NCBI RefSeq assembly: GCF_963921235.1 | Contig: NC_086097.1 | Coordinates: 42,224,001-42,288,000, forward strand | DNA from: Mobula hypostoma | Taxonomy: Eukaryota | Reading direction: 5' to 3' | Length of the DNA: 64,000 bases | Shown here: piece after piece, positions 1,264 through 63,722 of the stretch | How the letters are laid out: each line of letters begins with the position of its first letter | Position numbering within the stretch: position 1 is the first letter of the stretch | The notes under the pieces: generated by a model | Seen by the model: the letters and a program-made list of their open reading frames with translations, nothing else | What the model was told of the DNA's origin: nothing | Databases searched by the model: none | Made by a program: the position numbers and the translations under genes

Positions 1264-2995
1264 AAGCCCTTCTGCAGACTCGTTGCCTCCTCAACACTAC
1301 CCGCCCCTCCACCTAGCTTCATATCATCCACAACCTGGACACAAAGCCATCAATTCCATCATCCACATCATTGACAAACAATGTAAAAAGAATCAATCTC
1401 AACACAGACCCCTGTGGAACAACACTAGTCACCGGCAGCCAACCAGAAAAGGCTCATCTTATTCCCACTCTTTGCTTCCTGCCAATCAGCCAATGCTCTA
1501 TCCATGCTCGTATCGCTCCTGTAATACCAAGGGTTTTTATCTTGCTGAACAACCTCATGTATGGCACCTTATCAAAGGCCTTATCAAAATCCAAGTACAC
1601 AACATCCACCAATTCTCGTTTGTCTATCCTGCTTGTCATTTCCTCAACAAATTCCAACAGATTTGTCAGGCCAGATTTTCCCTTAAGGAAACCATGCTGA
1701 CTTTGACCAATTATATCATGTGCCTCCAAGTACCCCAAGACTTCACCCATAACAATTGACTTCAACATCTTCCCAACCACAGAAGTCAGACGAACTGGCC
1801 TATAATATATTTTCCTCTGCCTCCCTCCCTTCTTGAAGAGTGAAGTGATATTTGCAATGTTTCTGTCCTCAGGAACCATGTCAGAATCTACTGATTCTTG
1901 AAAGATCATTATTAATGCCTCCAAAATCTCTTCAGCTATCTCTTTCAGAACACTGGAGGGTAGTCCATCTGGTTCAGGCAACTTAACTAACTTCAGACCT
2001 TTCAGCTTCCCAACCACCTTCTCCCTAATAATAGCAACCACACCCACTTCTGCCCTATGACACTCTCAAACTTCCTGCATACTGCTAGTGTCTTCCATTG
2101 TGAAGATTGATGCCAAATACTTAGTCAGTATGTCTGTCATTTCCTCGTTCCCCATTACTACCACTCCCGTGTCATTTTTCAGCAGTCCATTATCTACTTT
2201 TGTTTCTGTTTTACTCTTTAAATACCTGAAAAAGAGACTTTTGGCATCCTTTTTTTCAATTTTTTAAATTAATTTCATAGAATGAAAACATAACAAGCAA
2301 AAATACTAGTAGGAGATACATTGTTACATTTAAAATGAGTAATTATAAAACCAAATAGTAAAAATCAACAAAGCTCCCAATTGTGCAGAATAATAAAGAA
2401 TAATACAAAGCAAAAAAAAACTGAAGAAAAATCATGAAAAAGAAAAGAAAAAGAAAAAAAACAAACCCCATCCCCCCAAAAAAAACTAAACAGAATTAGT
2501 CAACTAAACTAAAAGACTTGGGCAATACTAACAACTTGAAAATGGGAAAGAAGAAAACCTTAGTGTCGACGACTCCATTCCTCTCAAGGCATCCTGTTTG
2601 ATATTATTAGCTAGCTTACCATATTTCATCTTCTCCCTCCTTGTGTCTTTTTTAGTTGCCTTCTGTTGTTTTTTTAAAAGCTTCCCAATCCTCTAACTTC
2701 CCACTAATTTTTGCTCTATTATACACCCCTCTCTTTTGTTTTATGTTGGCTTAGACTTCCCTTGTCAGCCCTGCCCTTAGAATATTTCTTCTCTTTAGGA
2801 TGTATCTACCCGGTCCCTTCCGAATTGCTCCCAGAAACTCCAGTCATTGCCGCTCAGCCATTATCCTTGCTAGTGTCCCCTTCCAACCTTCATTGGCCAG
2901 CTGCTCTTTCATGCCTCTGTAATTTCCTTTACTCCACTGCGATGTTGATACATTTGACCCTCTCCCTCTCAAATTGCAGGATGAATTCCATCATA
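1264..2995 (-). mobile_element. CR1-clade LINE fragment (RT region), interrupted at 2251-2587
   Basis: ORF 1454-2047: YRPVRLTSVVGK, QSQHGFLKGKS, VDVVYLDFDKAFDKVP; CR1-like sequence resumes after 2595. Confidence 0.85.
2251..2587 (-). mobile_element. 5'-truncated poly(A)-tailed retroelement 3' end (L1-like)
   Basis: 8-bp direct repeat GGCATCCT at 2243-2250 and 2588-2595; T-run at the left end (poly-A on minus strand); A-rich non-coding body. Confidence 0.6.
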
Positions 2996-30470: not shown

Positions 30471-32729
30471 CTAGCTTGAGCACGTCCAACCCTAATTTGG
30501 AAGAGGTTGTGGAGAGTCCTGGGTGTGAATGTGGATACGTGGAAAAAAGACAGAATGACACAGTAGGACTGGAAGGATGGGACAATTGGAAATATGGCAG
30601 ATACTTCCAGGGGATGAGAGGAGACGTCAGGTGAGAGAGTATGCCAATAGGGAATTTGGAGAAAGTAAAGAGAATAGAATATTAGCACCAATGGATATTT
30701 GCACCTGAAGAATAGATACAGTTATAGACAAAGGTAAAGGTAGGAAAATGGGTGACAGAGCAAAAAGAAAAGGATAAAGGACAAAGTTGCATAATGTGAA
30801 TGGGTAGAAGAGTCACTTTGTAAAATGGAGTGGCATGGGATGAAGGCAAATTTGGAAAAGGTAGCAGGAGATGACTCACTACCTCAAATGTTGGGGGCAA
30901 AAGAGAAAATGGAACACGGCAAAGAAAGGAACAATGAAGAAGAGTAAGATGCAGAGAAGGAAAGAAAGGATAGAGAAAAATAAGCACAGGAAACAGCAGT
31001 AGATTAGGCCACATGGCCCCTTATGCCTTTTCGGTCAGTCATTAAGGCCATGGGTAATTCGATCACTAGTTTCAATTCCTCTGTTTTGTCAAGAGTTTCA
31101 GATCTGAAATATTAGCTGTTCCTCCTTCTACAGTTGCTGCCTGACCTACTGAGATTTTCCACATGTTTTTATTCCACTTCTCTGCCCAAACCTCATGGTT
31201 CTTGATTTCCCTATTGTCCAAATTTGACTGTAAAAAAATTGAGTTCCCTCTGACTTGCCTTGAGTAATTTCAAAAAGACAGTTTAATAATGACACAGTTC
31301 TTACGATAAGCGCAAAAGACGTATGCACAACATGACCTCACAAATAGATCCCTACAATCCTTTGACATCTATGTGCAGTTAATTCCACTGTTCCCCTCAT
31401 CAGCTACTTTCACACTTGAATTCAAAAGAATCCTAGATGGCCAACAACTTACTAGACGTCATCAAGAAAGTCGAGTAACGACCTCAGAAAAATATTTCAG
31501 ACATCTCTGATCTTTCCATCAATTCATGCATTAGACTGAAAATGGGTGAGGAACAGTGCACATCGGAAGAGCTGGGCACCATGAACAGCAACCATTGCAT
31601 TTCCACAATTAATTGCATTTGTGCATAGTCAAGAAATTAACATCAACTTCACAGTGCATTGCTAGCAAATAAGCACGGTTGTTCCTTTATTACAACCACA
31701 ACAGCATGTTAAGAGTAATAAAGTCAGTGCAAATTACACCTGCATTTCCTTTAGCAGATTGGCCCTCACACCAACTCCAACTAATTTGTTTCCATCATCT
31801 TTTTTTAACTCATTGTGAAGCAACACTACATGAGACCTGCTAGTATTGACACGAAATCATTCCAGGAAACCAAAGCCTTCCAATTTGGCATTGAAACTGT
31901 TAACAGCCATTTTCTCTATATTGGATTTTCCACAATTTACAGCACGGTTACACATGCACTATTAAACTTGCATTAATTTCTCAATGTAGGCAGATTCTAT
32001 TTTACCAAAATTAAATTTAGATCTATTAATGTCAAAAAGTTTTCTGTTCTTAATGGAGCTTAAATGTCGGGTTATTTTTTTTGCAATAATGCACAATACC
32101 ATCGCTATAGACTTTAGACAGTCAACAGGTTTATTGCACAGTTGAGAAACACAAGATTTGATCTCTACTGTTTTAGAATTAATCTGATTTAGAGTCATGC
32201 AACAGCTCATGTATTTAATTTTATATTTACTATTTTTCTGAATACATTAAGATCATAGAAACCATTGAAATTATAAAATAATGAGAATTTAATAACAAGC
32301 TATTTTCCTTGCCAAGAAATTTGCTCATATAGAGGAACAAATTATTTCTAACTATAAATTAAATATTCAACATTTTAAATGAGTATTTTCTGTATCTTTT
32401 CTTTAATAACCGCAAAGCCAAAAATTAGGTGTTAAAATAATTGATATATGAAAGAAAAGAGGGATCTCCAAAAGTTGTCAGCCTCAATGAAGGGCCAAAT
32501 GGATAACCAATGGGACATGCAATTCCAGACCACTCATCATCTCTCCTATCTAGTGGGGACAAGACCACAAATTAACTTTCAACTCTGTCAACTCAGTTAC
32601 GAAATGCTTCTTAATGTCAGGCAGCTCCGTGTATTAAGGAAAATAACTTGGAAAGGAGGGAGGAAGGAAACATGTATTACATGTCAATGGGTCAGATCTT
32701 AGATCAGCAAACCATTCATTGCTGTTGGA

Positions 32730-32910
32730 AGCACAAATGACTAAAGATGCTGTAATCTGGAACAAAAACATATAATTCTTGTTGAGCTGTATCTGTGGAG
32801 GCAAAGGAATGGTCAACACTTCAGGTCGAGACCCTCTCAACTTAAAACATCAACCAAACCCTTGCCTCCACAGATGCTGTCTGACTTGCTGAGTTCTCCA
32901 GGCATTTTTT
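32730..32910. mobile_element. Fold-back pair of old Penelope-like terminal fragments
   Basis: ATCTGTGGAGGCAAAGG (32791) is inverted as CCTTGCCTCCACAGATG (32860); decayed hammerhead halves TTCAGGTCGAGACCC and TCTCAACTTAAAACATC meet at the centre. Confidence 0.65.
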
Positions 32911-41180: not shown

Positions 41181-41949
41181 TCAAGGACCGTTCAGAAATC
41201 TGACGGCAGAAAGGAAGAAGCAGTTCATAAATCATTAAGTGTGAGTCTTCAGGCTTCAGACTCCAATACCGCCTCCAAGATGACGCATCTCCCAGAGGCA
41301 AATCTTTTTAGTTGCATCTATATGGCCTCATCTGATGATATTCATAATATACAGCATTCTCTCCCTCCACACAACTGTCAATTTCACTATCCAGTCCTTT
41401 ATGCATCACCTCTTTAATTCTTTGAATATCCTTGTAACTGAGCTTGTAAGCTGACTTTCACACCCCACCTTAAGCTAGGATTCAGTATACGCTAAAATTT
41501 CATGCTTTTGTGATATTAATTATTTGAGTGATTAAAGCCTGTGGCCACCCTTCAGCAGACATCGACTGCGAACTGTGACAGTGCTCTTTACACCTTATGC
41601 AACATGCAGATAAATTCAGATGCACAAAGGTTCTGAGTCAGGGTCACCTCGACGTGGACAATGCTGTTCTTCTTCTGTTCGGAGACTGGAGTTGTGGAAA
41701 CAGTGGTTGGCAGGTTTATGTTACATGTTTCGAAACAAAGCCATCTGAAGCTTTTGTTGCTGAGGATGAGGAGAGAATTGATCTCTGCAGACCGTAGGCA
41801 GATGGTGGCCTCCTGGTCATTTGAAGATCCGTTGTGGCCCTTATCCTTTGGGCTAACACTATGTACATATCTATAAAGATAACCATTATTCTGAATTACA
41901 TAGTGTGAGTGGTAACTAAATACTTAGCAACTGTGATTTAAGATAAACC

Positions 41950-42487
41950 CTCAAGGATATCTTCAAAAGGTGGCACCTCAAGAAGGCATCTTCTATCATT
42001 GAGGATTCTCTCCAGCCAGGACAAGCCCTCTACTCAGTATTACTGTAGGGGAGGAGATACAGAAGCCTGAAGACCCACATTCAATGTTTTAGGAAGAGCT
42101 TCATCCTCTCTGTGATCAGATTTCTGAACAGTCCATGTACTCATGGACACAACCTCTCTATTGTTCTTCTGCAGTATTTATTTATTTCCTTTTTTATTGT
42201 AACTTATAACAGAATGTGGAGGCCATGTCCTTGGGAATATTCAAAATGGAGGTTGATAGGTTCTTGATTAGCAAGGGAGGCAAAGATTAAGGGAAGAAGG
42301 CAGGAGAATGGGGTTGAGTGTGCTTTAGCCCATCAAGTCTGCTCCTCCATTTCATCATGGCCTAATTCTGCTCCAGTGCATTATGGTCTTACAGCAATTC
42401 TCTCTACCTTGCACTGTACTGTTGCCATTAAACAGCAAATTTTATGACATATGTATGTCAGTGATAATAAAGCTGATTCTGATTCTG
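41950..42487 (+). mobile_element. Rex1-type LINE 3' end with a CR1 3' fragment inserted (~42215-42390)
   Basis: Similar to 840-1020; ends GATAATAAAGCTGATTCTGATTCTG. Confidence 0.7.
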
Positions 42488-43072: not shown

Positions 43073-43470
43073 TAGAGTCATAGAGTCATTGAGAGGTACA
43101 GCACAGAAACAGGCTCTTCAGCCCATCTAGTCCATGCCTACTCATTTAAACTGCCTACTCCCATTGTCCTGCACCAGGACCGTAGTACTCCTTATCCCTA
43201 CTATCCATGTATCTATCCAGACTTCTCTTAAACGTTGAAATCGAGCTTGCATGCACTACTTGTGCTGTCAGCTCATTCCACATTCTCATGCCCCTCTGAG
43301 TGAAGAAGTTTCCCCTCATGTTCCCCTTAAACTTCTCACCTTTCACCCTTAACCCATGACCTCTAGTTGTAGTCCCACCCAACCTCAGTGGAAAAAGCCT
43401 GCTTGCATTTATCTATATCCCTTGTAATTTTGTATAACTCTATCAAATCTCCTCTCAATTGTCTATGGTC
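43073..43470 (-). mobile_element. CR1 3' end
   Basis: TAGAGTCATAGAGTCAT tail; ORF 43155-43382 TRGHGLRVKGEKFKGNMRGNFFTQR. Confidence 0.85.
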
Positions 43471-43615
43471 TAATTATTAATAATGCAACTAGAAACAGAG
43501 ATCTAAACAAATGAAAGCAATTGACAGGAATTCTGCAGATGCTGGAAATTCAAGCAACATACATCAAAGTTGCTGGTGAACACAGCAGGCCAAGCAGCAT
43601 CTATAGGAAGAGGTG

Positions 43616-43657
43616 CAGTCGACGTTTCAGGCCGAGACCCTTCGTCAGGACTAACTG
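43616..43657 (-). ncRNA. Minimal type I hammerhead ribozyme motif (inverted-arm copy)
   Basis: CAGTCGACGTTTCAGGCCGAGACCCTTCGTCAGGACTAACTG is the exact reverse complement of 47174-47215. Confidence 0.85.
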
Positions 43658-43945
43658 AAGGAAGAGTGAGTAAGGGATTTGAAAGCTGGAGGGGAAGGGG
43701 GAGATGCAAAATGATAGGAGAAGACAGGAGGGGAAGGAATAGAGCCAAGAGCTGGACAGGTGATAGGCAAAAGGGGATACGAGAGGATCATGGGACAGGA
43801 GGTCTGGGAAGAAAGACAAGGGGGGGGTGACCCAGAGGATGGGCAAGAGGTATATTCAGAGGGACAGAGGGAGAAAAAGGAGAGTGAGAGAAAGAATGTG
43901 TGCATAAAAATGAGTAACAGATGGGGTACGAGGGGGAGGTGGGGA

Positions 43946-44791
43946 CTAGCGGAAGTTAGAGAAGTCGATGTTCATGCCATCAGGTTGGAGGCTACCCAGA
44001 CGGAATATAAGGTGTTGTTCCTCCAACCTGAGTGTGGCTTCATCTTTACAGTAGGGGAGGCCGTGGATAGACATGTCAGAATGGGAATGGGATGTGGAAT
44101 TAAAATGTGTGGCCACTGGGAGATCCTGCTTTCTCTGGCGGACAGAGCGTAGATGTTCAGCAAAGCGGTCTCCCAGTCTGCGTCGGGTCTCACCAATATA
44201 TAAAAGGCCACATCGGGAGCACCGGACGCAGTATATCACCCCAGTCGACTCACAGGTGAAGTGATGCCTCACCTGGAAGGACTGTTTGGGGCCCTGAATG
44301 GTGGTAAGGGAGGAAGTGTAAGGGCATGTGTAGCACTTGTTCCGCTTACACGGATAAGTGCCAGGAGGGAGATCAGTGGGGAGGGATGGGGGGGACGAAT
44401 GGACAAGGGAGTTGTGTAGGGAGCGATCCCTGCGGAATTCAGAGAGAGGGGGGGAGGAAAAGATGTGCTTAGTGGTGGGATCCCGTTGGAGGTGGCGGAA
44501 GTTACGGAGAATAATATGTTGGACCCGGAGGCTGGTGGGGTGGTAGGTGAGGACCAAGGGAACCCTATTCCTAGTGGGGTGGTGGGAGGATGGAGTGAGA
44601 GCAGATGTACGTGAAATGGGGGAGATGCGTTTAAGAGCAGAGTTGATAGTGGAGGAAGGGAAGCCCCTTTCTTTAAAAAATGAAGACATCTCCCTCGTCC
44701 TAGAATGAAAAGCCTCATCCTGAGAGCAGATGCGGCGGAGATGGAGGAATTGCGAGAAGGGGATGGCGTTTTTGCAAGAGACAGGGTGAGA
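43946..44791 (-). CDS. Partial PLE ORF: RT thumb, Cys-rich linker and GIY-YIG endonuclease (uninterrupted, 5'-truncated)
   Basis: Stop-free from the inversion junction; RVPLVLTYHP, CKRNKCYTC, GVIYCVRCSRCGLLYIGETRRRLGDRFAEH, HFNSTSH, LEEQHLIFRLGSLQPDGMN. Confidence 0.85.
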   Translation of the reverse strand, partial: SHPVSCKNAIPFSQFLHLRRICSQDEAFHSRTREMSSFFKERGFPSSTINSALKRISPISRTSALTPSSHHPTRNRVPLVLTYHPTSLRVQHIILRNFRHLQRDPTTKHIFSSPPLSEFRRDRSLHNSLVHSSPPSLPTDLPPGTYPCKRNKCYTCPYTSSLTTIQGPKQSFQVRHHFTCESTGVIYCVRCSRCGLLYIGETRRRLGDRFAEHLRSVRQRKQDLPVATHFNSTSHSHSDMSIHGLPYCKDEATLRLEEQHLIFRLGSLQPDGMNIDFSNFR

Positions 44792-44792
44792 A

Positions 44793-46886
44793 CTCAGTGA
44801 GTTCCGTGTTCGCCATGATGCGGAACTTTTCTTCCGTCGTCTCCGTCTCCAAGCCTACTTCTTCGGCAAGGACTCTTCCACCCCCACCGATGACCCCTTC
44901 TCCCGTCTTCAACCCTCCTCTTCTTCATGGACACCCCGCTCTGGTCTTCTGCCTGCTCTGGATCTCTTTATTGCTAACTGCCGACGGGACATCAACCGTC
45001 TCGACTTCACCGCACCTTGTCTCCATTCCAACCTCACTCCTTCGGAACGCTCTGCTCTCCACTCCCTCCGCACTAGTCCTAACCTTATTATTAAACCCAC
45101 TGATAAGGGGGGTGCTGTTGTAGTCTGGCGTACTGACCTCTACCTTGCCGAGGCACAGCGACAACTCGCGGATACCCCCTCTTATTTACCCCTCGATCGT
45201 GACCCCACTAAGGAGCACCAGGCCATTGTCTCCCATACTATCACCGACTTTATCCGCTCAGGGGATCTCCCATCCACTGCTACCAACCTTATAGTTCCCA
45301 CACCCCGCACTTCCCGTTTCTACCTCCTACCCAAGATCCACAAACCTGCCTGTCCTGGCCAACCTATTGTCTCAGCTTGCTCCTGCCCCACCGAACTCGT
45401 TTCTGCATACCTCGACACTGTTTTATCACCCCTTGTTCAATCCCTTCCGACCTATGTTCGTGACACTTCTCACGCTCTTAAACTTTTCGATGATTTTAAG
45501 TTCCCTGGCCCCCACCGCTTTATTTTCACCATGGATGTCCAGTCCTTTATACTTCCATCCCCCATCAGGAAGGTCTCAAAGCTCTACGCTTCTTTTTGGA
45601 TTCCAGACCTAATCAGTTCCCCTCTACCACCACTCTGCTCCGTCTAGCGGAATTAGTCCTTACTCTTAATAATTTCTCCTTTTGCTCCTCCCATTTCCTC
45701 CAAACTAAAGGTGTAGCTATGGGCACCCGTATGGGTCCTAGCTATGCCTGCCTTTTTGTTGGGTTTGTGGAACAATCTATGTTCCGTGCCTATTCTGGTA
45801 TCTGTCCCCCACTTTTCCTTCGCTACATTGACGACTGCATTGGCGCTGCTTCCTGCACGCATGCAGAACTCGTTGACTTTATTAACTTTGCCTCCAACTT
45901 TCACCCTGCCCTCAAGTTTACCTGGTCCATTTCCGACACCTCCCTCCCCTTTCTAGATCTTTCTGTCTCTGTCTCTGGAGACAGCTTATCCACTGATGTC
46001 TACTATAAGCCTACTGACTCTCACAGCTATCTGGACTATTCCTCTTCTCACCCTGTCTCTTGCAAAAACGCCATCCCCTTCTCGCAATTCCTCCGTCTCC
46101 GCCGCATCTGCTCTCACGATGAGGCTTTTCATTCTAGGACGAGGGAGATGTCTTCATTTTTTAAAGAAAGGGGCTTCCCTTCCTCCACTATCAACTCTGC
46201 TCTTAAACGCATCTCCCCCATTTCACGTACATCTGCTCTCACTCCATCCTCCCACCACCCCACTAGGAATAGGGTTCCCCTGGTCCTCACCTACCACCCC
46301 ACCAGCCTCCGGGTCCAACATATTATTCTCCGTAACTTCCGCCACCTCCAACGGGATCCACCACTAAGCACATCTTTCCCTCCCCCCCCCTGCATTCCAC
46401 AGGGATCGCTCCCTACACAACTCCCTTGTCCATTCGTCCCCCCCATCCCTCCCCACTGATCTCCCTCCTGGCACTTATCCGTGTAAGCGAAACAAGTGCT
46501 ACACATGCCCTTACACTTCCTCCCTTACCACCATTCAGGGCCCCAAACAGTCCTTCCAGGTGAGGCATCACTTCACCTGTGAGTCGACTGGGGTGATATA
46601 CTGCGTCCGGTGCTCCCGATGTGGCCTTTTATATATTGGTGAGACCCGACGCAGACTGGGAGACCGCTTTGCTGAACATCTACGCTCTGTCCGCCAGAGA
46701 AAGCAGGATCTCCCAGTGGCCACACATTTTAATTCCACATCCCATTCCCATTCTGACATGTCTATCCACGGCCTCCTCTACTGTAAAGATGAAGCCTCAC
46801 TCAGGTTGGAGGAACAACACCTTATATTCCGTCTGGGTAGCCTCCAACCTGATGGCATGAACATCGACTTCTCTAACTTCCGCTAG
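44793..46886 (+). pseudogene. PLE reverse transcriptase + GIY-YIG ORF, 5'-truncated, frameshifts near 45547 and 46360-46395
   Basis: Start-less open frame 44793-45545 (IIKPTDKGGAVVVW, FYLLPKIHK, PIVS, MDVQS) missed by the ORF track; 45596-46459 (QTKGVAMGTRMGPSYA, RYIDD, FLDL, VYYKPT); 46560-46886 GIY-YIG. Confidence 0.92.
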
Positions 46887-47173
46887 GCCCCACCTCCTCC
46901 TCGTACCCCATCTGTTACTCATTTTTATGCACACATTCTTTCTCTCACTCTCCTTTTTCTCCCTCTGTCCCTCTGAATATACCTCTTGCCCATCCTCTGG
47001 GTCACCCCCCCCCGTCTTTCTTCCCGGACCTCCTGTCCCATGATCCTCTCGTATCCCCTTTTGCCTATCACCTGTCCAGCTCTCGGCTCTATCCCTCCCC
47101 CTCCTGTCTTCTCCTATCATTTTGCATCTCCCCCTCCCCCTCCAGCTTTCAAATCCCTTACTCACTCTTCCTT

Positions 47174-47215
47174 CAGTTAGTCCTGACGAAGGGTCTCGGC
47201 CTGAAACGTCGACTG
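47174..47215 (+). ncRNA. Minimal type I hammerhead ribozyme motif in the PLE terminal repeat
   Basis: TAGTC-CTGACGA-AGG(GTCTCGG)CCT-GAAA-CGTC-GACTG: intact CUGANGA and GAAA core, 3-bp stem II, vestigial stem III, GUC cleavage triplet ending at 47210, stem I UAGUC/GACUG. Confidence 0.85.
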
Positions 47216-48801
47216 CACCTCTTCCTATAGATGCTGCTTGGCCTGCTGCGTTCACCAGCAACTTTGATGTATGTTGCTTGAAAGCAATTGAGATGTATTT
47301 TTTAAAAAATAAACAAATTTTTCAAAGGATGTTTTATTAATGACAAAAACGTGACTGGTTTACACACCTAATTTTCAAATTATTATTATGCACGTGATGG
47401 ATCTCTTAAAAGTATGTCTGCTGTCCTTTCTTGTGGCTAAAGGAATGGAACTTACTTAGGGAAAAATAACTGCAGCCTAGAAAAAGGATTTAGTGGTACC
47501 TTTTTTATATCTGATTTGTGAGTGATAAGCATTTTGCCCCTAACGTTCTTCACAGCAGGAAATTGGACTTGGCACATCTGGCAAGGATTCATCCGAGTAG
47601 AGCTGTCATTTCCCATCATGCTTAGTGCACATGATGGTATCATCGATGTGTGTGGCACATACTCTGCATTCTGCCACAAAATGGATCAAACAGCTCCAAC
47701 TTGTCAACTGCTAAACTAGAACTAAATCACACAGCAGTGGAGAACTGCATGTGACTTAAAAATCCTGACTAGATGACCAATTTTACACTCAGTTTATCTT
47801 CATGTTCTATGTTTCTGCACGTGGGCGGCTCTGAGAAAGTTTGCAGCATCACATCCAAAAGTTCCAACAAATGGCCCCGGAGATCCCATCGTTTGTAGTA
47901 ACCTCCCCAAATCCCGGTACAGCGTGACTTCAGCTCCCCCATAACCCTGACCCTCCCACCCTGATTTCCCTCTGCTCCATGGCAGCACTGATGCTCCAAT
48001 GCATTGGCTTGGAGAGGGTACGCTAACTGAGCTGACCCTGTCGGCAGCAGTCAGTTACCTGGCAGCTGTGAGCTCTGCGACTAGCTGCTATCTGTAAACA
48101 TACAGGTTGCAATTCAATGCTTCAAAATGGGAGGAAACCACAATCATAATCCTTTAGTGTGAGGATATCCCAAATTCACCACTTTTTTTGAGTGCTTTTG
48201 GGGAAAATGTAAATGCAAATGCTTTTGAGGAAAAAAACCATAAAAAACAAATTTGTACTGACCAGATAACATCTGTGTGCCATATTGTTCACTGTTTTCC
48301 ACTACAGTGCAGTGTTCACCTCACTAATGAAGCTGCCTGGAGCTCAACTCAAATTTCAGAACTGCAGTAATCTTTGTCACTTGAAACAAACTAGCAGCAG
48401 CTCCCATGTTCAAAGTTCAAAGTAAATTTACTATAAAGGTACATACAGGTCACCATATACAACCCTGAGATTCATTCTCTTGTGGGCATTCACAGTACAT
48501 ACAAAGAAACACAATAGAATCAATGAAAACCTGCACACAACAAAGATGGACAAACAACTAAAGTTGCACAAAAGACAACAAATTATGCAAATACAAAATT
48601 TAAAGTAAACAAAATAATAAATAAATGAGTAGTATTGAACAACACACACAAAATGCGGGAGGAACTCAGCAGGCCAGGCAGCATCTATGGAAAAGAATAA
48701 ACAGCTGACATTTTTGGGCCAAGACCCTTCATCAGGACTGGAGATAAAAGATGGGAAAGCAGAGCAAGAAGGTGGGGGGAGGGGAGGAAGAAATACAATA
48801 A

Positions 48802-50030
48802 CAGACATCCCACCTCTCCCGGAAGTTCCGGGAGTCTTCCGCATATTGATAGCGGCTCCCTGCTGCCCACAAGTTATATACAATATCCCGGAAATTGATT
48901 TACAGAGAGAGGCAGAGAGAGACAGAGAGACAGAGAGAGAGTGAATCCTGATTGGTCTCTCTTTGTGCTAAGTAGACCTATCAGTTTTCTCTGTGGGCGG
49001 GCTTTACTGTTGACCTCTCTCTCTCTTTCATTGTCCATCAGTCAGTTTAGTGTCCTGCAGCACCATGGGAGAGTGTTCCAAAAAAAATATATAAAATGTA
49101 CTTCACCCCAGACTACACTAAAGTGTACCCTGCCTAATAGGGTTCAAAAATAATGACAGTGTTGCTCACTGCACTGTTTGCAACAGTGACTTTTCTATTG
49201 CCCATGGTGGGTTAAATGACTGTAAAAGACATGTTGAGGTGAGTTGAACAGGTGTCAATGAGAGACCAGATCTTGAAAAATCTGTAATGGTCAATGCAGA
49301 GAGCCAGGATGAGGTGAATCCAGAGCAGATTTTGACTTTGGCAGAGAGATTTCCAAATGTGATCAAGGCAGATGTAAGAGAACAGCTCCACTTGGAAGTC
49401 CTGGATTATGTCTCAAGTAACCTTGAAGCACTGGTGCCAAACTACAGAAGTTTGCCAGTTGATGAGTTCTGGGGGAAGCTGTCCAAAGTAAAATCTGTGA
49501 GCACAGGGCAGTTGAGATTCAAAGAGCTCTGCCAGTTGATGAAGCTGCTTTTGCTGCTGCCAAATTCTCATTGTGATATGGAAAGGGCATTCAGCATGGT
49601 GCGTCACATTAAGACAGAATTCAGAAGTCAGCTATCTCACAAAACACTTGTCAATCTGATGTCTTGCAAAATTAACAAATTCATTGACACAGACTGCTAT
49701 GAGTTTGAGACTTCCAGCAAAATGCTCAAATCTGCCAAGCAAGCCTCATCACAGTAAAAGGAAAGTTTGCAAAAGAAATAAAAAAGCTATTTGCATTAGC
49801 ATTTAGCTATTAGCATTGAGACTGCCAACAAAATATTCAACAGGGAATACATGTGTGTGTGTAAATAGTTTCAATATGTGATCAAATAAATTGTTGTGTT
49901 CTTTCAAAATCAAATGTCCTGTATACATACACCCTTGGAGGTTGACCGGGGAGGGGGGGGAAATGGGGTTACGGTGGGTGGGGTGGTGGTGCTACCTCCC
50001 TGAAATGAGTTTTGCAGGGTGGGATGTCTG
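48802..50030 (+). mobile_element. Internally deleted hAT transposon
   Basis: 13-bp TIRs CAGACATCCCACC / GGTGGGATGTCTG; BED-type finger AHCTVCNSDFSIAHGGLNDCKRH at ~49164-49232; hAT dimerisation ORF 49287-49757. Confidence 0.88.
49287..49757 (+). CDS. hAT transposase C-terminal dimerisation domain fragment (156 aa)
   Basis: VDEFWGKL...RFKELCQLMKLLLLLPNSHCDMERAFSMVRHIKTEFRSQLSHKTLVNLM fits the hATC pattern FW..F..L..LP.S...ER.FS.....K...R..L. Confidence 0.75.
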   Translation: MVNAESQDEVNPEQILTLAERFPNVIKADVREQLHLEVLDYVSSNLEALVPNYRSLPVDEFWGKLSKVKSVSTGQLRFKELCQLMKLLLLLPNSHCDMERAFSMVRHIKTEFRSQLSHKTLVNLMSCKINKFIDTDCYEFETSSKMLKSAKQASSQ

Positions 50031-51852
50031 CAATGGTAAGTGATAGGTGAAATCGGGAGAGGGGGAGGGATGAAGTAAAGAGCTGGAAAGTCAATTGGTA
50101 GAAGAGATAAAGGGCTGGAGAAGGGGGAATCTGAGAGGAGAGGACAGAGACCATGGAAGAAATGGAAGGGAGTGGAGCACCAGAGGGAGGTGATGGGCAG
50201 GTATAGAGATAATGTGAGAGAGGGAAATGGGAATGGGAAATGATGAAGGAGAGCTTGGGGGGGGTGGGTCATTACCGGAGGTTCAGGAAATCAATTTTCA
50301 TGCCATCAGGTTAGAGGCTATCCAGATGGAATATAAGGTGTTGCTCCTCCAACCTGAGTGTGATCTCATCATAGCAGTAGAGGAAGCCATGGACTGACAT
50401 GTCAGAATGGGAATAGGAAGTGGAATTAAAGTGGGTGACCACTGGGAGATCCTGCTTTTTCTGGCCGACAGAGTGTAGGTGCTCGGCGAAGCGGCCTCCC
50501 AATCTACATAGGGTCTCACCAATATACAGCAGGCCACACCGGGAGCACTGGATACAATAGATAACCCCAACAACCTCACAGGTGAAGTATTGCCTCACCT
50601 GGAAGGACTGTTTGGGGCCCTTGAATGGTAGTGAGGGAGGAGGTGTAGGGGCAGGTGTAACACTTGTTCTGCTTACAAGGATAAGTGCCAGGAGGGAGAT
50701 CAGTGTATCTGTCGAAATTTGTAAAGTTTTAGATGACATGCCAAATCTTCACAAACTTCTAAGAAAGTAGAGGCACTGAGGTGCTTCTTTATCGTGGTAT
50801 TTGCATGCTGGACCCAGGACATATCCTCTGAAATTATACCACTAAGGTATTTAAATTTACTGACCCTCTCAAACCTCTGATACCCTGATGAGGACTGGCT
50901 CATGGACCTCCAGTTTCCTCCTCCTGAAGTCAGTAATCAGCTCTTTGGTGGTGCTGATGTTGAGTGAAAGGTTGTTGATGTGGCTCCATACATCCAGATT
51001 TTCAATCTCCCTCTTACTTGTTGATTTACCACCCTTTTGATTCAGCCTACAACGGTGGTGTCATAAGCAAATGTAAATAAGGCACTGGAGCTGTGCTTAA
51101 CCTCACAATCATTATTATAAAGCGAGTACAGCATGGGGTTAAGCACACAGTCATGTGCACCTACCTGTGTTGATGGTGACTGTCGAGAAGATGTTGTTGC
51201 CAATCCGAACCGACTGGGGTCTGCAAGTGCAGAAATCCAGGATCCAGTAGCACAAGGAGGTATTAAGGCCTAGGTCTTAGAGCCTGTTAATTAGTTTAGA
51301 GGAGATATTAGTGTTGAATGAAGAAATGTAGTCAATAAAGAGCATCCTGATGTGTGATTCTTCACTGTCTAAATGTTCCAGGGTTGAGTGAAGAGCCAAT
51401 GAAATGGCATCTGCTGTGGAGCTGTTGTGACGGCCGGTAAATTGGAGCGGACCCAAAGTCGCTCCTCAAGCAAGAGTTGACATGTTTCATGTCCAACCCC
51501 TCCAAGCACTTCATCAGAGTAATGTAAGTGCTACTGGATGAGAGTCTTTGAGGCAGGTTACCATGTTCTTCTTGGGTACTGGTATAACTGGAGCCTGCTT
51601 GAAGCAGGTGGATACCTCGGACAGGCAAAGCAAGATGTGAAAGATATCAATACACACTATAGCCATTTGATTAGCACAGCTACACTGTCTGAGATCCCCC
51701 TAAATGATGCTCTTGCATTGGCCTCAAAGACTGAGATCACAGGGTTGTCAGGGACTGTGGGAGTTTGTAAAGGTGACTCCACGTTCTGTCGGTCAAAGTG
51801 AACATAAAAGGCATTGAGCTCCTCTGGGGGCAAAACATTTTTGTCACATAAA

Positions 51853-52390: not shown

Positions 52391-55159
52391 GTACAAAGTA
52401 AACTACAAAGTAAACTTTGTAGGAGCTGACGGTATTAAAGCCCTGCCACTGCCTATTGCGGTCTGATGCCAGCGAATTTTTTTTGGACAAGGAAGAGCTA
52501 CACAGACAAACCAACCTCAGTCAGAGGTGTTTGGCTTGTCTTGACAGTCCTTGTCAATGGTGCCAAGGTAGGAGTCTTGGGTGAGCAGTCAGCCAAGAGT
52601 GCATTAAAATATTTCCGGCCTCTAGGTTTACAAACAAGCAAACCACTCATCCCAATATTTTCACACCTTAGAGTTAAAATATCCTCTTAAATACTTTTCT
52701 CAAACTCTAAGTAGTAATTCTCAGTCTTCAGAGAAGATTATATTTCTCCCGTTCCAGTTGAATTCATTTGTTAAAGCGGAACAATTCATTGTGGTACCAC
52801 TCAGGAAAGGCCAGAGAGACTGATAAAGACTACAAGAACATTAGTAATTTTAGACAGCACAGGATTTATCTCAATAATATCACAATGTTGCAGACTTATG
52901 TATCAGAATTCATAATAGTTACAGCTTACATCTTCCTTGTGATTAAAGGCTTTTGGAAAGCCCAAGTGTACTCTGGGAGATGAATATGGATATTCTTGGA
53001 CTGGATTATTGTTATGGTATATGCATATAGAGTGAATTAAATTGTGGTTTCTAAATTACTTAGATGAAATATATTTCGACATGTAAATGAACTCAGTTGA
53101 CTATATCTCAGTTTGAGTAATTTTAACACCCTTGATTGAAAACTTACAGTCAATTGATATTAATCAAGGGGGCCACAAAATTTATTCCTGACAGATACTG
53201 AAATGTTTCCAAAATGGCATTAAATACATACATGAATACTTAAAATGAGGTTCACAGAGGACACTGTCTTGGTGGGAGTGTTGATATACCTGTACATGCT
53301 ACTCTCTATGAATGCAAAGTTGGGGGATTATGATCTCACTCAATCCACTGATTTGACACCACAACTACCATTTTGTATTTTGACATTAGCTCAACCTCCG
53401 GTTTAACTTCACGTGTTCAGCAGCAGGAAGAACACCCCGGAAGTATTTTTAAACAAGAATTATTTGCTAATTTAATATTAGCTTTTACTTAATCTTACTG
53501 TCCTTTTGCCATGATTGCACATGTGTGTGATGCTTTCTAGGCTACCTTGAAATAGTGAAAGAGTATAGCGATCAGTGCGCTGTGTGCTGAGGGAGTTTCT
53601 CCTGATTTCAGTGTTCCCAGTCTTGATGCATTAGTGAGCGTTCCCTTTGGAATGTAGCTTGTTCAGAAAGATGACCAGAGGGCACACAAAGCAGGACATA
53701 GAGGCAGCAGGTGGGGAGGACAAAGATGCTAAGTAGGAAGTCATATCTGATCAATGCGATCAAGGAGCAATATTCATTGGCCTCAGCAAAGTATCATGTA
53801 TAACTCCTCTAAGCTTCAATAAAAGGTCTTCATTGAAATCTGAGCAGTCAATTTGTCCATATTAGAGCTGAACAAGATTGCATTGTGACATGATGTCACT
53901 GTGGTGGTGAAGGACAGTCAACAACGGCAGCCTACAAAGATTTAGCAAGGATTCTGAGAATGTGTCATAAGGCAGACTGGCAAAGTACACATGACATCCA
54001 AGGAAGACTGGCATATTGGATCCACAACTGGCCCAGAGGTGGGAAACAAAATGTTTTAGTGAGTAGTTACAATTACCAGTCAAGTTCCACAGAACTCAGT
54101 CCTTCAGGACCTGTACCTTACTCAACCTAACAAGACCTTTGAAAATGTTGCTATTTACTGTGGCTCCTCATTCCCACTGCACTGTTGGAATGCTTGGCCA
54201 CTCCATCCCATTGTCATTGCTGGCTATACAAAAGTGTGGGAACCTGACTGCATGCATTAAAGTGGGAACAGCAAGAAAATTGGAAACAATTCTGTTTGAA
54301 TAAAAGTGTTTAAGGGATGGAACCCTTTAAAGTCACATGGGAGGTACGCTGTGGGCAATTTTCCAATACTGTCATTATAACCTCTCAACTTTCACTCATG
54401 GTTGAAATTTCTGATTAGGATTCAAATCAAAAGGAAAAGATCAAGATGAGGAATTCCAAAATTATGGGCATGGCCACCTACTTTCACAGCATAAAACCAA
54501 AGATCTAAGTAACTCCTGGCTCTTATTTGAAATAAAGTCTACAAATCAGTGATGAATGGATTCAGCTTTTCCCTCGTTTCATCACAGACTCAGGCACAAA
54601 TACAAAAATACCATAGTAAAACAAATGACTATAAATGGGATGTTTCTTTCCTACAAGAAGCCAGACGCCAGTTTATATTCTGCTTTGAAGGTATAATTGT
54701 TTGTGTTTCTACTATTTTAGCTAAACAACATGCTCTAGAGTTACTCTTAAAAAATATATTTTTCATTCTAACACTGTGAGTGTTTAAAAAGGCCCAAGTA
54801 TTGCCAGTATCACAAGATACCTATATCTCAATATTATTTTAGGAATGATTATGTGGATAAACATACTCAAGTAAAAGAGATTTTTTTTAAATTTCCAAGA
54901 TCTTTCTTCTTTTCCTATTTCTTTTTCTATTATACATTTATTTTTTATGAAATAATAACTATTACAATTTAGGATCTTCTCAAAATATCACCAAGACTTA
55001 CTTGAACAAGCCAATCGGCTTACAATGTGTAAGCTTCTATGTTGATGGTTTCCTACATGTCCCATTGCCTGAAACGTACACCTCACCTTAAAAGTCAGTC
55101 AGGTCGTATGATCTAGTCTTAAACCTAAGCCAAAATATCTAGGCCTTCTGGAAACATAA

Positions 55160-55400
55160 GTTGCTGGAATCAGGAGCAACAAACAATCTGCTGGAGGAAC
55201 TCAGTCAATTGTGCAGCATCAAGTTCACATAAGCTGCTCAACCAGCTGAGTTCCAACAGCAGGCTGTCTGTCGTTTAGCTCTTTTCCTTGGTAGGAAGAG
55301 CAAGTTAGCCTCTCCCAATAGATGCTGCCTGGCCTGCTGCGTTCACCAGCAACTTTTATGTGTGTTGCTTGAAATTTCAGCATCTGCAGATTTCCTTGTG
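55160..55400. mobile_element. Penelope-like terminal fragments (old fold-back 55160-55270; young 3' terminus 55318-55400)
   Basis: ATAGATGCTGCCTGGCCTGCTGCGTTCACCAGCAACTTT..GTTGCTTGAA..CAGCATCTGCAGA matches 47227-47280 and the reverse complement of 43530-43605. Confidence 0.75.
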
Positions 55401-56599
55401 TTAGGGCAAGTTAGCATGTGGTTTTGGAAGCCTGTAACTTGGTGTCACATTCTAACCAACATTATGACTGCTGCAGATAGGGAAAATGAATTGGACACCA
55501 CTTTAAAATACTTTTCAGAACCCTATCAATTGCATGTACCCTCGTGGACGACTGAGATGCGTGATAGGTTTATTAAAAGCTGGTGGCCCTATCCAAGAGA
55601 AGCCCTTGATTAAATTTTTACTTTCATTCTGCCATGCTGCTCTGATCTCACCCCACCCTGAGTTTAAAAGTTCTGCTCCGTGGCCCTGCAGGGATGTCAT
55701 AAACAAGAAATTGCCAGAGGCTGAAGTGCTTCTCCTGGTCCTCGTCTTCTCAGCCGCAGCTCCCTGATCAAACACAATGAGAAAATGGAATGGATCTCCA
55801 GGCTCTCAGAACATGAAAAGAAGCTGAAGGAACAGGTCATACTGCCTCTCATGCCTGCTCAGCCATTCATCTGGTCATGGCTGAACTTTCATCTCAGCAC
55901 CACTTTCTTCAGTAGCACTGCAGCATTTCATTCCCTTATTATCTAACAATCTATCGATCTTTGTCATGATTTCTCCTTATTTCTGACCTAACTTTCAGAA
56001 CTGCAGGCCCCCAGTCCCAGGCAGTGCAGCCAGGAGAAACATTAATTGCACATCTACCTTTGTATATTTCAATGAGATCACCTCTCTAACCTCCTGAAAG
56101 TACAGGTTGAATCTGTTTAATCTCTTCTATTCGACATACTTAGCATCCAGTGAACCTTTACTCTCTTTAGAATATGGATATCACTTCTTAACTAGGGAAA
56201 CCAGACCTAATGTTCCAGGCACAACCTCAGCAAGATCCTGTGGGATTAGTTCAAAATTCTCTATTTCCCTCTTACTCTACTGCTGGTGCTCACCATCTAC
56301 ATGAAGTCGGCTTTCTCCATTATTATCAATCTATTATTAATTGCTATTCTCAAGCTTTGAACATACCGAAACATTGTACAGCCATTGAAAAGGATATTGT
56401 GCTCAAAGCAAGCTCCCTCAAATGCGTAACAACTTAATAATTTACCAGCCCGGATCCGTGCACAGAATCTACAACATCCTCTGACTCAGACGCAGATGTG
56501 CTCCCAGCTGAGTTGCAGATGACAAAGCTATCAGAAATAATACGTACAAAATAACAAAGGTTTCATTTGTGAAACAGCTGGATTCCAACATCTGTACTC

Positions 56600-62200: not shown

Positions 62201-63722
62201 AGGTAGTAAATTGGATTAGACATTGACTTTGTGGAAGAAGGCGGAGAATGGTTGCCTCTCTGACTGTAGAGATGTGACTGGTGCTGTGCTGCGGGACTGA
62301 TGCTGGGTCCTTTATTGTTAGTAGTCATCTATATTCACAGCAGTGGTGAACGAAATTCTTCCGTGAAGTGTTCGGAGTCCCAGGGTAGGTGGGTGGTTAG
62401 ACTCTCTCTTGTTGGGGATGGGTGCTTCCTGACAATTGTGAGGCACAAACGTTCCTTACAATTACTAGTTCACACCCAACGCTAAAAGCGAACTTGCTGG
62501 AGGAACTAAGTCAGTGTTTCAAGTTGAGACCCTTCATCTGAACTGAAAGACAGAGGGAGATAGGCAGTATGAAGAGATGAGGAGAGGGGGTGGAGGAAGA
62601 GCATCATTGAAGGCATCTTCAAAACATAGTGCCTCAAGAAGGTGACATCCATCACTGAGGGGCAACACCATCCACAACATGCTCTCTTCTCGTTGCTGCC
62701 ATCCAGGAGTAGGTATAGAGGCCTGAGGATGCACACTCAATGTTTCAAGAACAGCTCATTGCTAGCGAGTAGGCGGATACAATAGGGTCTTTTAAGAGCT
62801 TCTTGGATAAGTACATGGAACTTAGAAAACTAGAGGGCTATGCGTTAGGGAAATTCTAGGCAGTTTCTAGAGTAGGTTACATGGTTGGCACAACATTGTG
62901 GGCCGAAGGGCCTGTAATGTGCTGTAGATTCATATGTTCTATGTTCTATATCAATGATCTGGATGATAATGCAGTAAACTGGATCAACAAATTTGCGATT
63001 ACATCAAAATTGGGGGTGTAGTGGGAAAATGGCAGAGGGAATTGAATACAGACACTTGTGAAGTATTGTACTTTGTGAGGATCAACCAGGGTAGGTCTTA
63101 CCAGCGAACGGTCGGACACTGAGGAGCGCAGTACAACAGAGGGATCTGAGAATACAGATCCATAATTCCTTGAAAGTGATGTCACAAGCACATAAGGTTG
63201 AAAAGAATGCTTTTGACTCTTTGACATTCATAATCAATGTATTTTGTACAAGAGTTTATGATGTCACATTGAAATTGTATAAGATATTAGTGAAGCCTAA
63301 TCTGGAGGATTATGCAGTTTTGGTCACCTACCTGCAGGAAAGATGTAAAGAAGATTGAAAGAGTGCAGAGAAAATTTACAAGAATGTTTCTAGTACTTAA
63401 GGGCCTGAGTTATTGGAAAAGGTTAGGACGTTATTCCCTAGAACATAGAAGATTGAGGGGAGATTTTATAAAAATGTACAAAATTATGAAGGATAGAAAG
63501 GACAAGTAGGCTTTTTCCACAGAAGTTAGGTGAGACTAAGACAAGAGGTCATGGGTTATGGGTGAAAGGTAAAATTGTCAAGTGGTAGATGCATGGTCAA
63601 TTTCAAGAGAAATTTGGATAGGTACGTGGATGAGAGGGGGATGAAGGGCTGTGGTCTGGGTTCAGTTTAATGGTTAGACACAGGCTAGGGCCTGTTTCTG
63701 TGCTACAGTGTTCTATGACTAT
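59260..63722 (+). mobile_element. Near full-length degraded CR1 LINE: 5' UTR, ORF1 (Zn-finger/zipper + SGNH esterase), ORF2 (APE + RT); interrupted ~62335-62945
   Basis: EMW..PDSCICMKC..VKELELQLDDLW; GEQPEVVVHV.SYDMGR; WCRREGF, DGLH; YFNARS, ISETWL, SDHN, QYGF, RRLRGDFIKMYKIM; tail TTCTATGACTAT. Confidence 0.88.
62490..62945. mobile_element. Mixed insert in CR1: PLE terminal fragment (minus, 62490-62600), Rex1 fragment (62600-62757), CR1 3' end (62765-62945)
   Basis: TGCTGGAGGAACT..TTTCAAGTTGAGACCCTTCATCTG (decayed hammerhead); HHPQHALFSLLPS; CATATGTTCTATGTTCTAT tail. Confidence 0.65.

What the first reader, a model, noticed from the sequence alone, without database searches (positions are those of the whole stretch)
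43616..47215. Two intact, divergently oriented minimal hammerhead ribozymes at the ends of a young Penelope-like insertion
Seen: identical motifs at 47174-47215 (+) and 43616-43657 (-), with CUGACGA, a 3-bp stem II, GAAA, a GUC cleavage triplet, a 5-bp stem I and almost no stem III (GAAACGUC, self-complementary ACGU). Known: Penelope-like elements carry minimal type I hammerheads in their terminal repeats, proposed to cleave efficiently as dimers. Inference: the copies are on opposite strands, so any single transcript has only one sense hammerhead. Cleavage would need trans-dimerisation or monomer activity, and a read-through transcript could instead sequester the motif in the arm-arm duplex. 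That would be a ribozyme switch at this locus, active in either transcription direction.
Basis: partly seen in the sequence, partly recalled or inferred. Interest (0 to 1): 0.75.

Follow-up and report, generated by a model that had tools for sequence, protein, structure and literature searches.

The report
Ordinary head-to-head Penelope retrotransposon insertion
The two mirror-image self-cutting RNA motifs are real, but they are the end of one jumping gene present twice in a single back-to-back insertion, a layout already in print, and any RNA running through both is predicted to lock the motif shut rather than act as a switch.

Summary
Observation confirmed: the 42-nt motifs are identical and fit the minimal type-I hammerhead of Penelope-like elements (PLEs). 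They sit in one 3.76-kb insertion (43525-47282). It consists of a 5'-truncated, frameshifted Neptune/Nematis-type PLE plus an inverted 1.24-kb copy of its 3' end, with a 13-bp target-site duplication, a 24-nt tail on the left arm only and a short palindrome at the inversion point. All four traits are published, as are opposite-strand minimal hammerhead pairs. Identity of the motifs is expected by chance about half the time at 1.5% arm divergence. The switch idea is not supported. In either read-through direction the sense motif comes last, after its antisense copy; on the + strand all 38 bases fold into the arm duplex. The five older hammerhead relics in the window all have broken cores, and I found no host gene. 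Best mechanism (inferred): both 3' overhangs of a staggered cut primed a cDNA, and the two cDNAs were joined head to head. Cleavage and expression of this locus could not be tested. The scan has noted this architecture before in this genome and in another. Ordinary; interest 0.08.

The parts
43512..43524 (+). Left target-site duplication (13 bp)
   Evidence: the 13-mer occurs only at 43512 and 47279 in the window
43525..43548 (-). 24-nt PLE 'tail', on the left arm only
   Evidence: homologous tail in an independent copy at 55374-55396
43549..44792 (-). Inverted 5'-truncated copy (1244 bp) of the element's 3' end: end of RT thumb, linker, GIY-YIG endonuclease (frame open to its stop at 43946-43948), 3' UTR, hammerhead
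43616..43653 (-). Minimal type-I hammerhead motif, left copy; predicted cut after 43621
44790..44804 (.). Inversion junction (44792|44793) carrying a 7-bp-arm palindrome with 1-nt spacer
   Evidence: 81 of 19489 random junctions reach 7 bp or more (0.4%); pattern noticed before the test
44793..47282 (+). Main 5'-truncated PLE copy; begins near residue 196 of an 893-aa homologue; ORF broken by frameshifts near 45546, 46357 and 46389
45104..45835 (+). RT region with DKG motif (45104) and YIDD (45824-45835)
   Evidence: 52% identity over 267 aa to P0004, a homologue with precomputed RVT_1; direct Pfam scan of the RT pieces gave no hit
46482..46886 (+). C-X4-C-XX-C linker (46482-46508) and C-terminal GIY-YIG endonuclease with CCHH residues, stop at 46884-46886
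   Evidence: (PF01541, E 6e-5, above cut-off)
47178..47215 (+). Minimal type-I hammerhead motif, right copy; predicted cut after 47210
47279..47291 (+). Right target-site duplication; its first 4 bases are shared with the element's end, so the duplication is 9-13 bp

Best explanation
This is one young, protein-dead insertion of a Penelope-like retrotransposon, made of a front-truncated copy and an inverted shorter copy inside one target-site duplication, and the two hammerheads are likely passive passengers, present twice only because the element's 3' end is present twice. Shown: architecture, duplication, one-sided tail, junction palindrome, broken ORF. Inferred mechanism (about 60% against fold-back): the GIY-YIG endonuclease cut both strands 9-13 nt apart leaving 3' overhangs. 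Each overhang primed reverse transcription on uncleaved element RNA, one at the tail end (left) and one at the tail start (right, 4-nt microhomology). The 1.27-kb and 2.49-kb cDNAs were joined head to head, probably through a 3-nt snap-back at the long cDNA's end. Today any read-through RNA would form a 1.2-kb duplex that buries the motif. An RNA starting inside an arm would carry one motif, predicted to misfold and to need a partner RNA or the element's protein from elsewhere in the genome.
For: 13-bp duplication at the exact ends; 2 of about 19,900 random 40-nt window pairs share 13 bp. Arms 98% identical, and at 8 of the 19 listed left-arm sites checked both arms carry the same letter while 25-85% of run X1's family depth reads another, pointing to one source lineage. 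Inverted 5'-truncated copy, 8-10-bp duplication, one-sided tail and junction palindromes are described for PLEs (PMC3846280; PMC8557442). Opposite-strand min-HHR pairs are reported (PMC4209133). A purified PLE protein cuts and extends both strands, starts at two internal sites flanking the tail, uses uncleaved RNA and does not need the hammerhead (PMC11167929). Both arms run 67-91 nt past the cut site, so both templates were uncleaved there. The tail is absent from the right arm, so the left arm cannot be a fold-back copy of the right as it now stands. 5 of 5 older relics overlapping the motif have broken cores. Monomer fold is an inactive hairpin (stem II pair probability 0.02; stems I and II near 0 in 3 of 3 longer contexts).
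Against: No genome was held, so no genome-wide test of ends, cores or empty site. No listed contig bridged the window's own junctions (one search shows only the best rows). The in-vitro mechanism comes from the Poseidon clade, not this one. Nearest-neighbour folding does not score the hammerhead core or protein help. Family-level hints of selection on the motif exist: in run X5, 368 contigs stop matching exactly at the outer edge of stem I (43616), and the motif bin has the highest depth in both DNA contig runs. That speaks for a role in the element's cycle, not at this locus. The junction palindrome also fits the self-priming rival.
Confidence: 0.88

Rival explanations
1. Same ordinary insertion, different route: one template (possibly antisense RNA, or one long tail-bearing cDNA) self-primed at a short palindrome and folded back; the right end was joined by 4-nt microhomology and the centre was trimmed unevenly.
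For: 7-bp junction palindrome, 0.4% under a random-junction null. Self-priming is the published reading of such palindromes (PMC3846280 Discussion). 4-nt microhomology at the tail-less end.
Against: Needs an extra 1.25-kb one-sided loss to explain unequal arms. Both-strand cutting and two start sites are shown in vitro for another PLE.
Confidence: 0.3
2. One reading: a locus-level ribozyme switch, active in either direction and toggled by arm-arm pairing.
For: Both motifs are intact; arm-arm sequestration is predicted; family sequence is present in contigs of a run guessed to be RNA (X9).
Against: Both read-through directions are predicted off. Intactness is explained by youth. Older relics decay. 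Single min-HHRs showed no cleavage and dimers little (PMC4209133). No reads ended at the site in Anolis RNA-seq (PMC11167929). No host-type Pfam domain in 189 non-repeat frames of 55 aa or more outside the element; only an RT and a hAT fragment.
Confidence: 0.02
3. Two separate insertions at one spot, or a fold-back assembly artefact.
For: PLEs tend to insert beside earlier copies (PMC6765202). No listed record bridged the junction.
Against: One duplication frames both arms. The arms differ at 18-19 substitutions and 3 indels, and at 11 of these the right arm has the family's common letter, unlike a read fold-back.
Confidence: 0.03

Closest known systems
Endonuclease-bearing PLE insertions with inverted pLTR, e.g. 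Pen2a_Av of Adineta vaga (PMC3846280; general scheme in PMC8557442 Fig. 2 legend)
   Same: Head-to-head inverted 5'-truncated copy, short target-site duplication around the whole unit, tail on one arm only, palindrome at the inverted junction
   Different: Here the inverted arm is long (1.24 kb, reaching into the RT thumb), there is no direct 5' pLTR, the tail is 24 nt instead of 30-40, and the host is a cartilaginous fish by protein homologues
Minimal type-I hammerheads (min-HHR) of metazoan PLEs (PMC4209133)
   Same: CUGANGA/GAAA/UH core, 4-5-bp helix I, palindromic 15.2-16.2, no helix III, mostly solitary or opposite-strand pairs
   Different: Helix II is 3 bp (7-8 bp in Schistosoma); the pair is 3.5 kb apart (100-700 bp in that report); not assayed here
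Poseidon of Anolis carolinensis, PAc (PMC11167929)
   Same: Hammerhead just upstream of an AC/GT-rich tail; two alternative 3' ends; AT-rich target
   Different: PAc is Penelope/Poseidon clade; this element has the CX2-5CxxC linker of Neptune/Nematis

Membership tests
Canonical EN+ Penelope-like element | PLE-type RT (DKG, YIDD) with C-terminal GIY-YIG endonuclease in one ORF | tested here: met
   (ORF now in frameshifted pieces)
Canonical EN+ Penelope-like element | CCHH motif within the endonuclease | tested here: met
   read by eye in the translation against the description in PMC8557442
Canonical EN+ Penelope-like element | Direct or inverted pLTR, optional one-sided tail, short TSD | tested here: met
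Neptune/Nematis clades | CX2-5CxxC linker before GIY-YIG | tested here: met
   C-X4-C-XX-C at 46482-46508; definition
Neptune/Nematis clades | Placement in an RT tree with named clade members | not testable with these tools
   no clade-labelled references were returned
Minimal type-I hammerhead | Conserved core, helices I and II, palindromic 15.2-16.2 | tested here: met
   Rfam models did not match
Minimal type-I hammerhead | Self-cleavage as dimer or with protein | not testable with these tools
   RNA data were contigs only, kind guessed
Minimal type-I hammerhead | Core better conserved than flanks across genomic copies | tested here: inconclusive
   no core position among 40 listed variant rows but 263 rows hidden; 5 of 5 old relics broken; no outside copies found
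Non-LTR retrozyme | Tandem non-coding units, each with a hammerhead | tested here: not met
   inverted, coding-derived arms; definition from bioRxiv 10.64898/2026.07.22.740005

The most novel reading that the evidence does not exclude
The locus is a clean fossil of double priming by a dimeric PLE particle: two uncleaved RNAs, held together through their self-complementary hammerhead motifs acting as a pairing signal more than as enzymes, each prime one overhang, and the cDNAs are joined by snap-back synthesis. That would give PLE hammerheads a structural job and explain head-to-head pairs.
Probability: 0.07. Interest if true: 0.6.

Novelty: new member of a known kind. Interest (0 to 1): 0.08.

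Why it matters
As found, it matters little: one more copy of a very abundant family in a published layout. Its small value is as a tidy example for the open question of how PLEs integrate, since both ends, the tail and the junction are readable. The role of PLE hammerheads is still unsettled in print (PMC8557442, PMC11167929), but this locus does not make it more testable than any other copy.

Tried and rejected
Whole genome not held. Rfam found no hammerhead. A 22-nt pattern from just downstream of the motif found 0 loci in viral and 0 in metagenome contigs, so no alignment of outside copies. The one raw-read run laid (X21) gave 2 reads, both under 90% alike; the other three runs were contigs and cannot show RNA ends. 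Cofolding two motifs gave -30.3 kcal/mol against -22.0 for two monomers, but in the inactive register; the strand-swapped active dimer scored -10.9, with the core not modelled; a first attempt at that structure was mis-nested and is discarded. The bacterial promoter scan is irrelevant to this host and ignored. The Lunse et al. dimer paper is not held; I saw only its citation and the summary in PMC6765202. Searches for PLEs in cartilaginous fish (15 of 18 listed, none on topic by title), 'twin priming' with Penelope (2 papers, listing only, neither on PLE mechanism by title) and hammerhead + Penelope + antisense + bidirectional promoter (0) gave nothing specific. A run of C-to-T changes in the left arm (43695-43747) suggested editing; rejected as untestable: four sites on a C-rich strand, some variable in the family. 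One search used 19 substitutions; one search lists 18; the probability is about 0.5 either way.

Full report
Observation. The two 42-nt stretches are exact reverse complements. They parse as a minimal type-I hammerhead: 5-bp stem I (one G-U), CUGACGA, 3-bp stem II, GAAA, palindromic ACGU in place of stem III, cut predicted after 47210 (+) and 43621 (-). Rfam does not see them; the match is to the descriptor in PMC4209133 (parts 1-2 of 4 read). They are not independent events. Both lie in a 1244-bp inverted repeat, 43549-44792 against 46045-47282, 98% identical, with 18-19 substitutions and 3 indels. At that rate a 42-nt block is identical about half the time, and three longer identical blocks lie elsewhere in the arms.

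Anatomy. The unit runs 43525-47282 and is framed by a 13-bp direct repeat at 43512 and 47279 that occurs nowhere else in the window; 2 of about 19,900 random window pairs share as much. Four of those bases are also the element's last four. The left arm has 24 extra bases of element sequence, the tail, also seen in an unrelated copy at 55374-55396. [quoted passage not shown] It lacks about 195 N-terminal residues relative to an 893-aa homologue and is frameshifted near 45546, 46357 and 46389, so it makes no working protein. A C-X4-C-XX-C linker points to Neptune/Nematis (PMC8557442 passages); no tree was possible. Best named homologues are from rays and sharks, 89% identity over 78% of the query for the top hit. 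At the inversion point a 7-bp palindrome straddles the joint; 81 of 19489 random joints do as well (noticed before testing). A ray homologue has His where the window has Glu just before the joint, so the three bases that extend the palindrome are probably not the main copy's own upstream sequence (inference).

Family context. Contigs of two DNA runs and one guessed RNA run cover all 30 bins of 43200-46040. In X1 summed depth is 9.8 million in the motif bin and 0.5-1.6 million over the RT region, as expected for an abundant, mostly 5'-truncated family; the tool warns this is no copy number. Of the 40 variant rows shown (263 hidden), 19 fall in the left arm. At 11 the arms differ and the right arm has the family's common letter; at 8 both arms share a letter that 25-85% of X1 depth does not. 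This fits one source lineage plus later mutation and cannot tell one RNA from two. In X5, 368 contigs stop matching at the outer edge of stem I, a hint that the motif is kept across subfamilies. Within the window, 5 of 5 older relics overlapping the motif have lost the core. Together these suggest selection on source elements and decay after insertion.

The switch. Folding the whole + strand read-through (43500-47300) pairs all 38 motif bases with the left arm. The - strand was not folded but is symmetric. In each direction the antisense copy is made first, so read-through is predicted off both ways. An RNA starting inside an arm, for instance from the pLTR promoter described for PLEs (PMC6765202 passages), would hold one motif. 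Its predicted fold is an inactive hairpin in which the core pairs with the cleavage triplet, with the caveat that the model ignores tertiary contacts. Published single min-HHRs did not cleave and dimers cleaved weakly; the Anolis motif needs the element's protein and is dispensable for insertion (PMC11167929 parts 1-2 of 4). Any partner would come from the family at large. No host-type domain appeared in 189 non-repeat frames outside the element, a weak test since short exons are missed. Expression of this locus is untested.

How it formed. A duplication around two outward-pointing 3' ends means each end is joined to a 3' overhang of a staggered cut. The Anolis protein cuts and extends both strands and starts at two sites flanking the tail. 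I infer two cDNAs, one from each site, on RNA uncleaved at the hammerhead, joined head to head, possibly by a 3-nt snap-back. The rival is self-priming fold-back, the reading given in PMC3846280 (passages and Discussion). Both give the same ordinary product.

Known versus new. PMC3846280 describes the inverted pLTR, 8-10-bp duplication, one-sided tail and junction palindromes; PMC8557442 calls the layout typical; PMC4209133 reports opposite-strand min-HHR pairs. Supplements were not read and may list this family. My searches found no paper on this family in cartilaginous fish, which is weak. Earlier scan notes, unchecked, report the same architecture in this genome and another; they agree but are not evidence. 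Verdict: real motif, known kind, no support for a switch. Interest 0.08.

Noticed in passing
window 55310-55405 (+): 96-bp tail-bearing PLE 3' scrap framed by a 10-bp duplication (55300 and 55406); starts about 9 nt past the hammerhead cut site.
   Followed up: partly
window about 32735-32910: Old, decayed head-to-head PLE stump centred in hammerhead stem II; by eye the tail is on the left arm only; no clear duplication found.
   Followed up: partly
window about 55150-55280: Another old head-to-head stump of PLE ends without hammerhead; by eye tail on the left arm only.
   Followed up: partly
window 50021-50706 (-): Older PLE fragment of a related subfamily, 84% identical over the nuclease region; no hammerhead seen beyond it.
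   Followed up: partly
window 48640-48740 (-), 62448-62568 (-), 31091-31155 (+): Solitary PLE-end relics with mutated hammerhead cores.
   Followed up: yes
window 43695-43747: Four C-to-T differences (element sense) in TC context within 53 bp in the left arm; may be chance or source polymorphism.
   Followed up: no
window 41182-41257 and 42062-42137: 76-bp inverted repeat, 82% complementary, 804 bp apart; possibly a DNA-transposon relic.
   Followed up: no
window 49248-49754 (+) and 1457-2065 (-): hAT dimerisation-domain fragment and an RT fragment.
   Followed up: no
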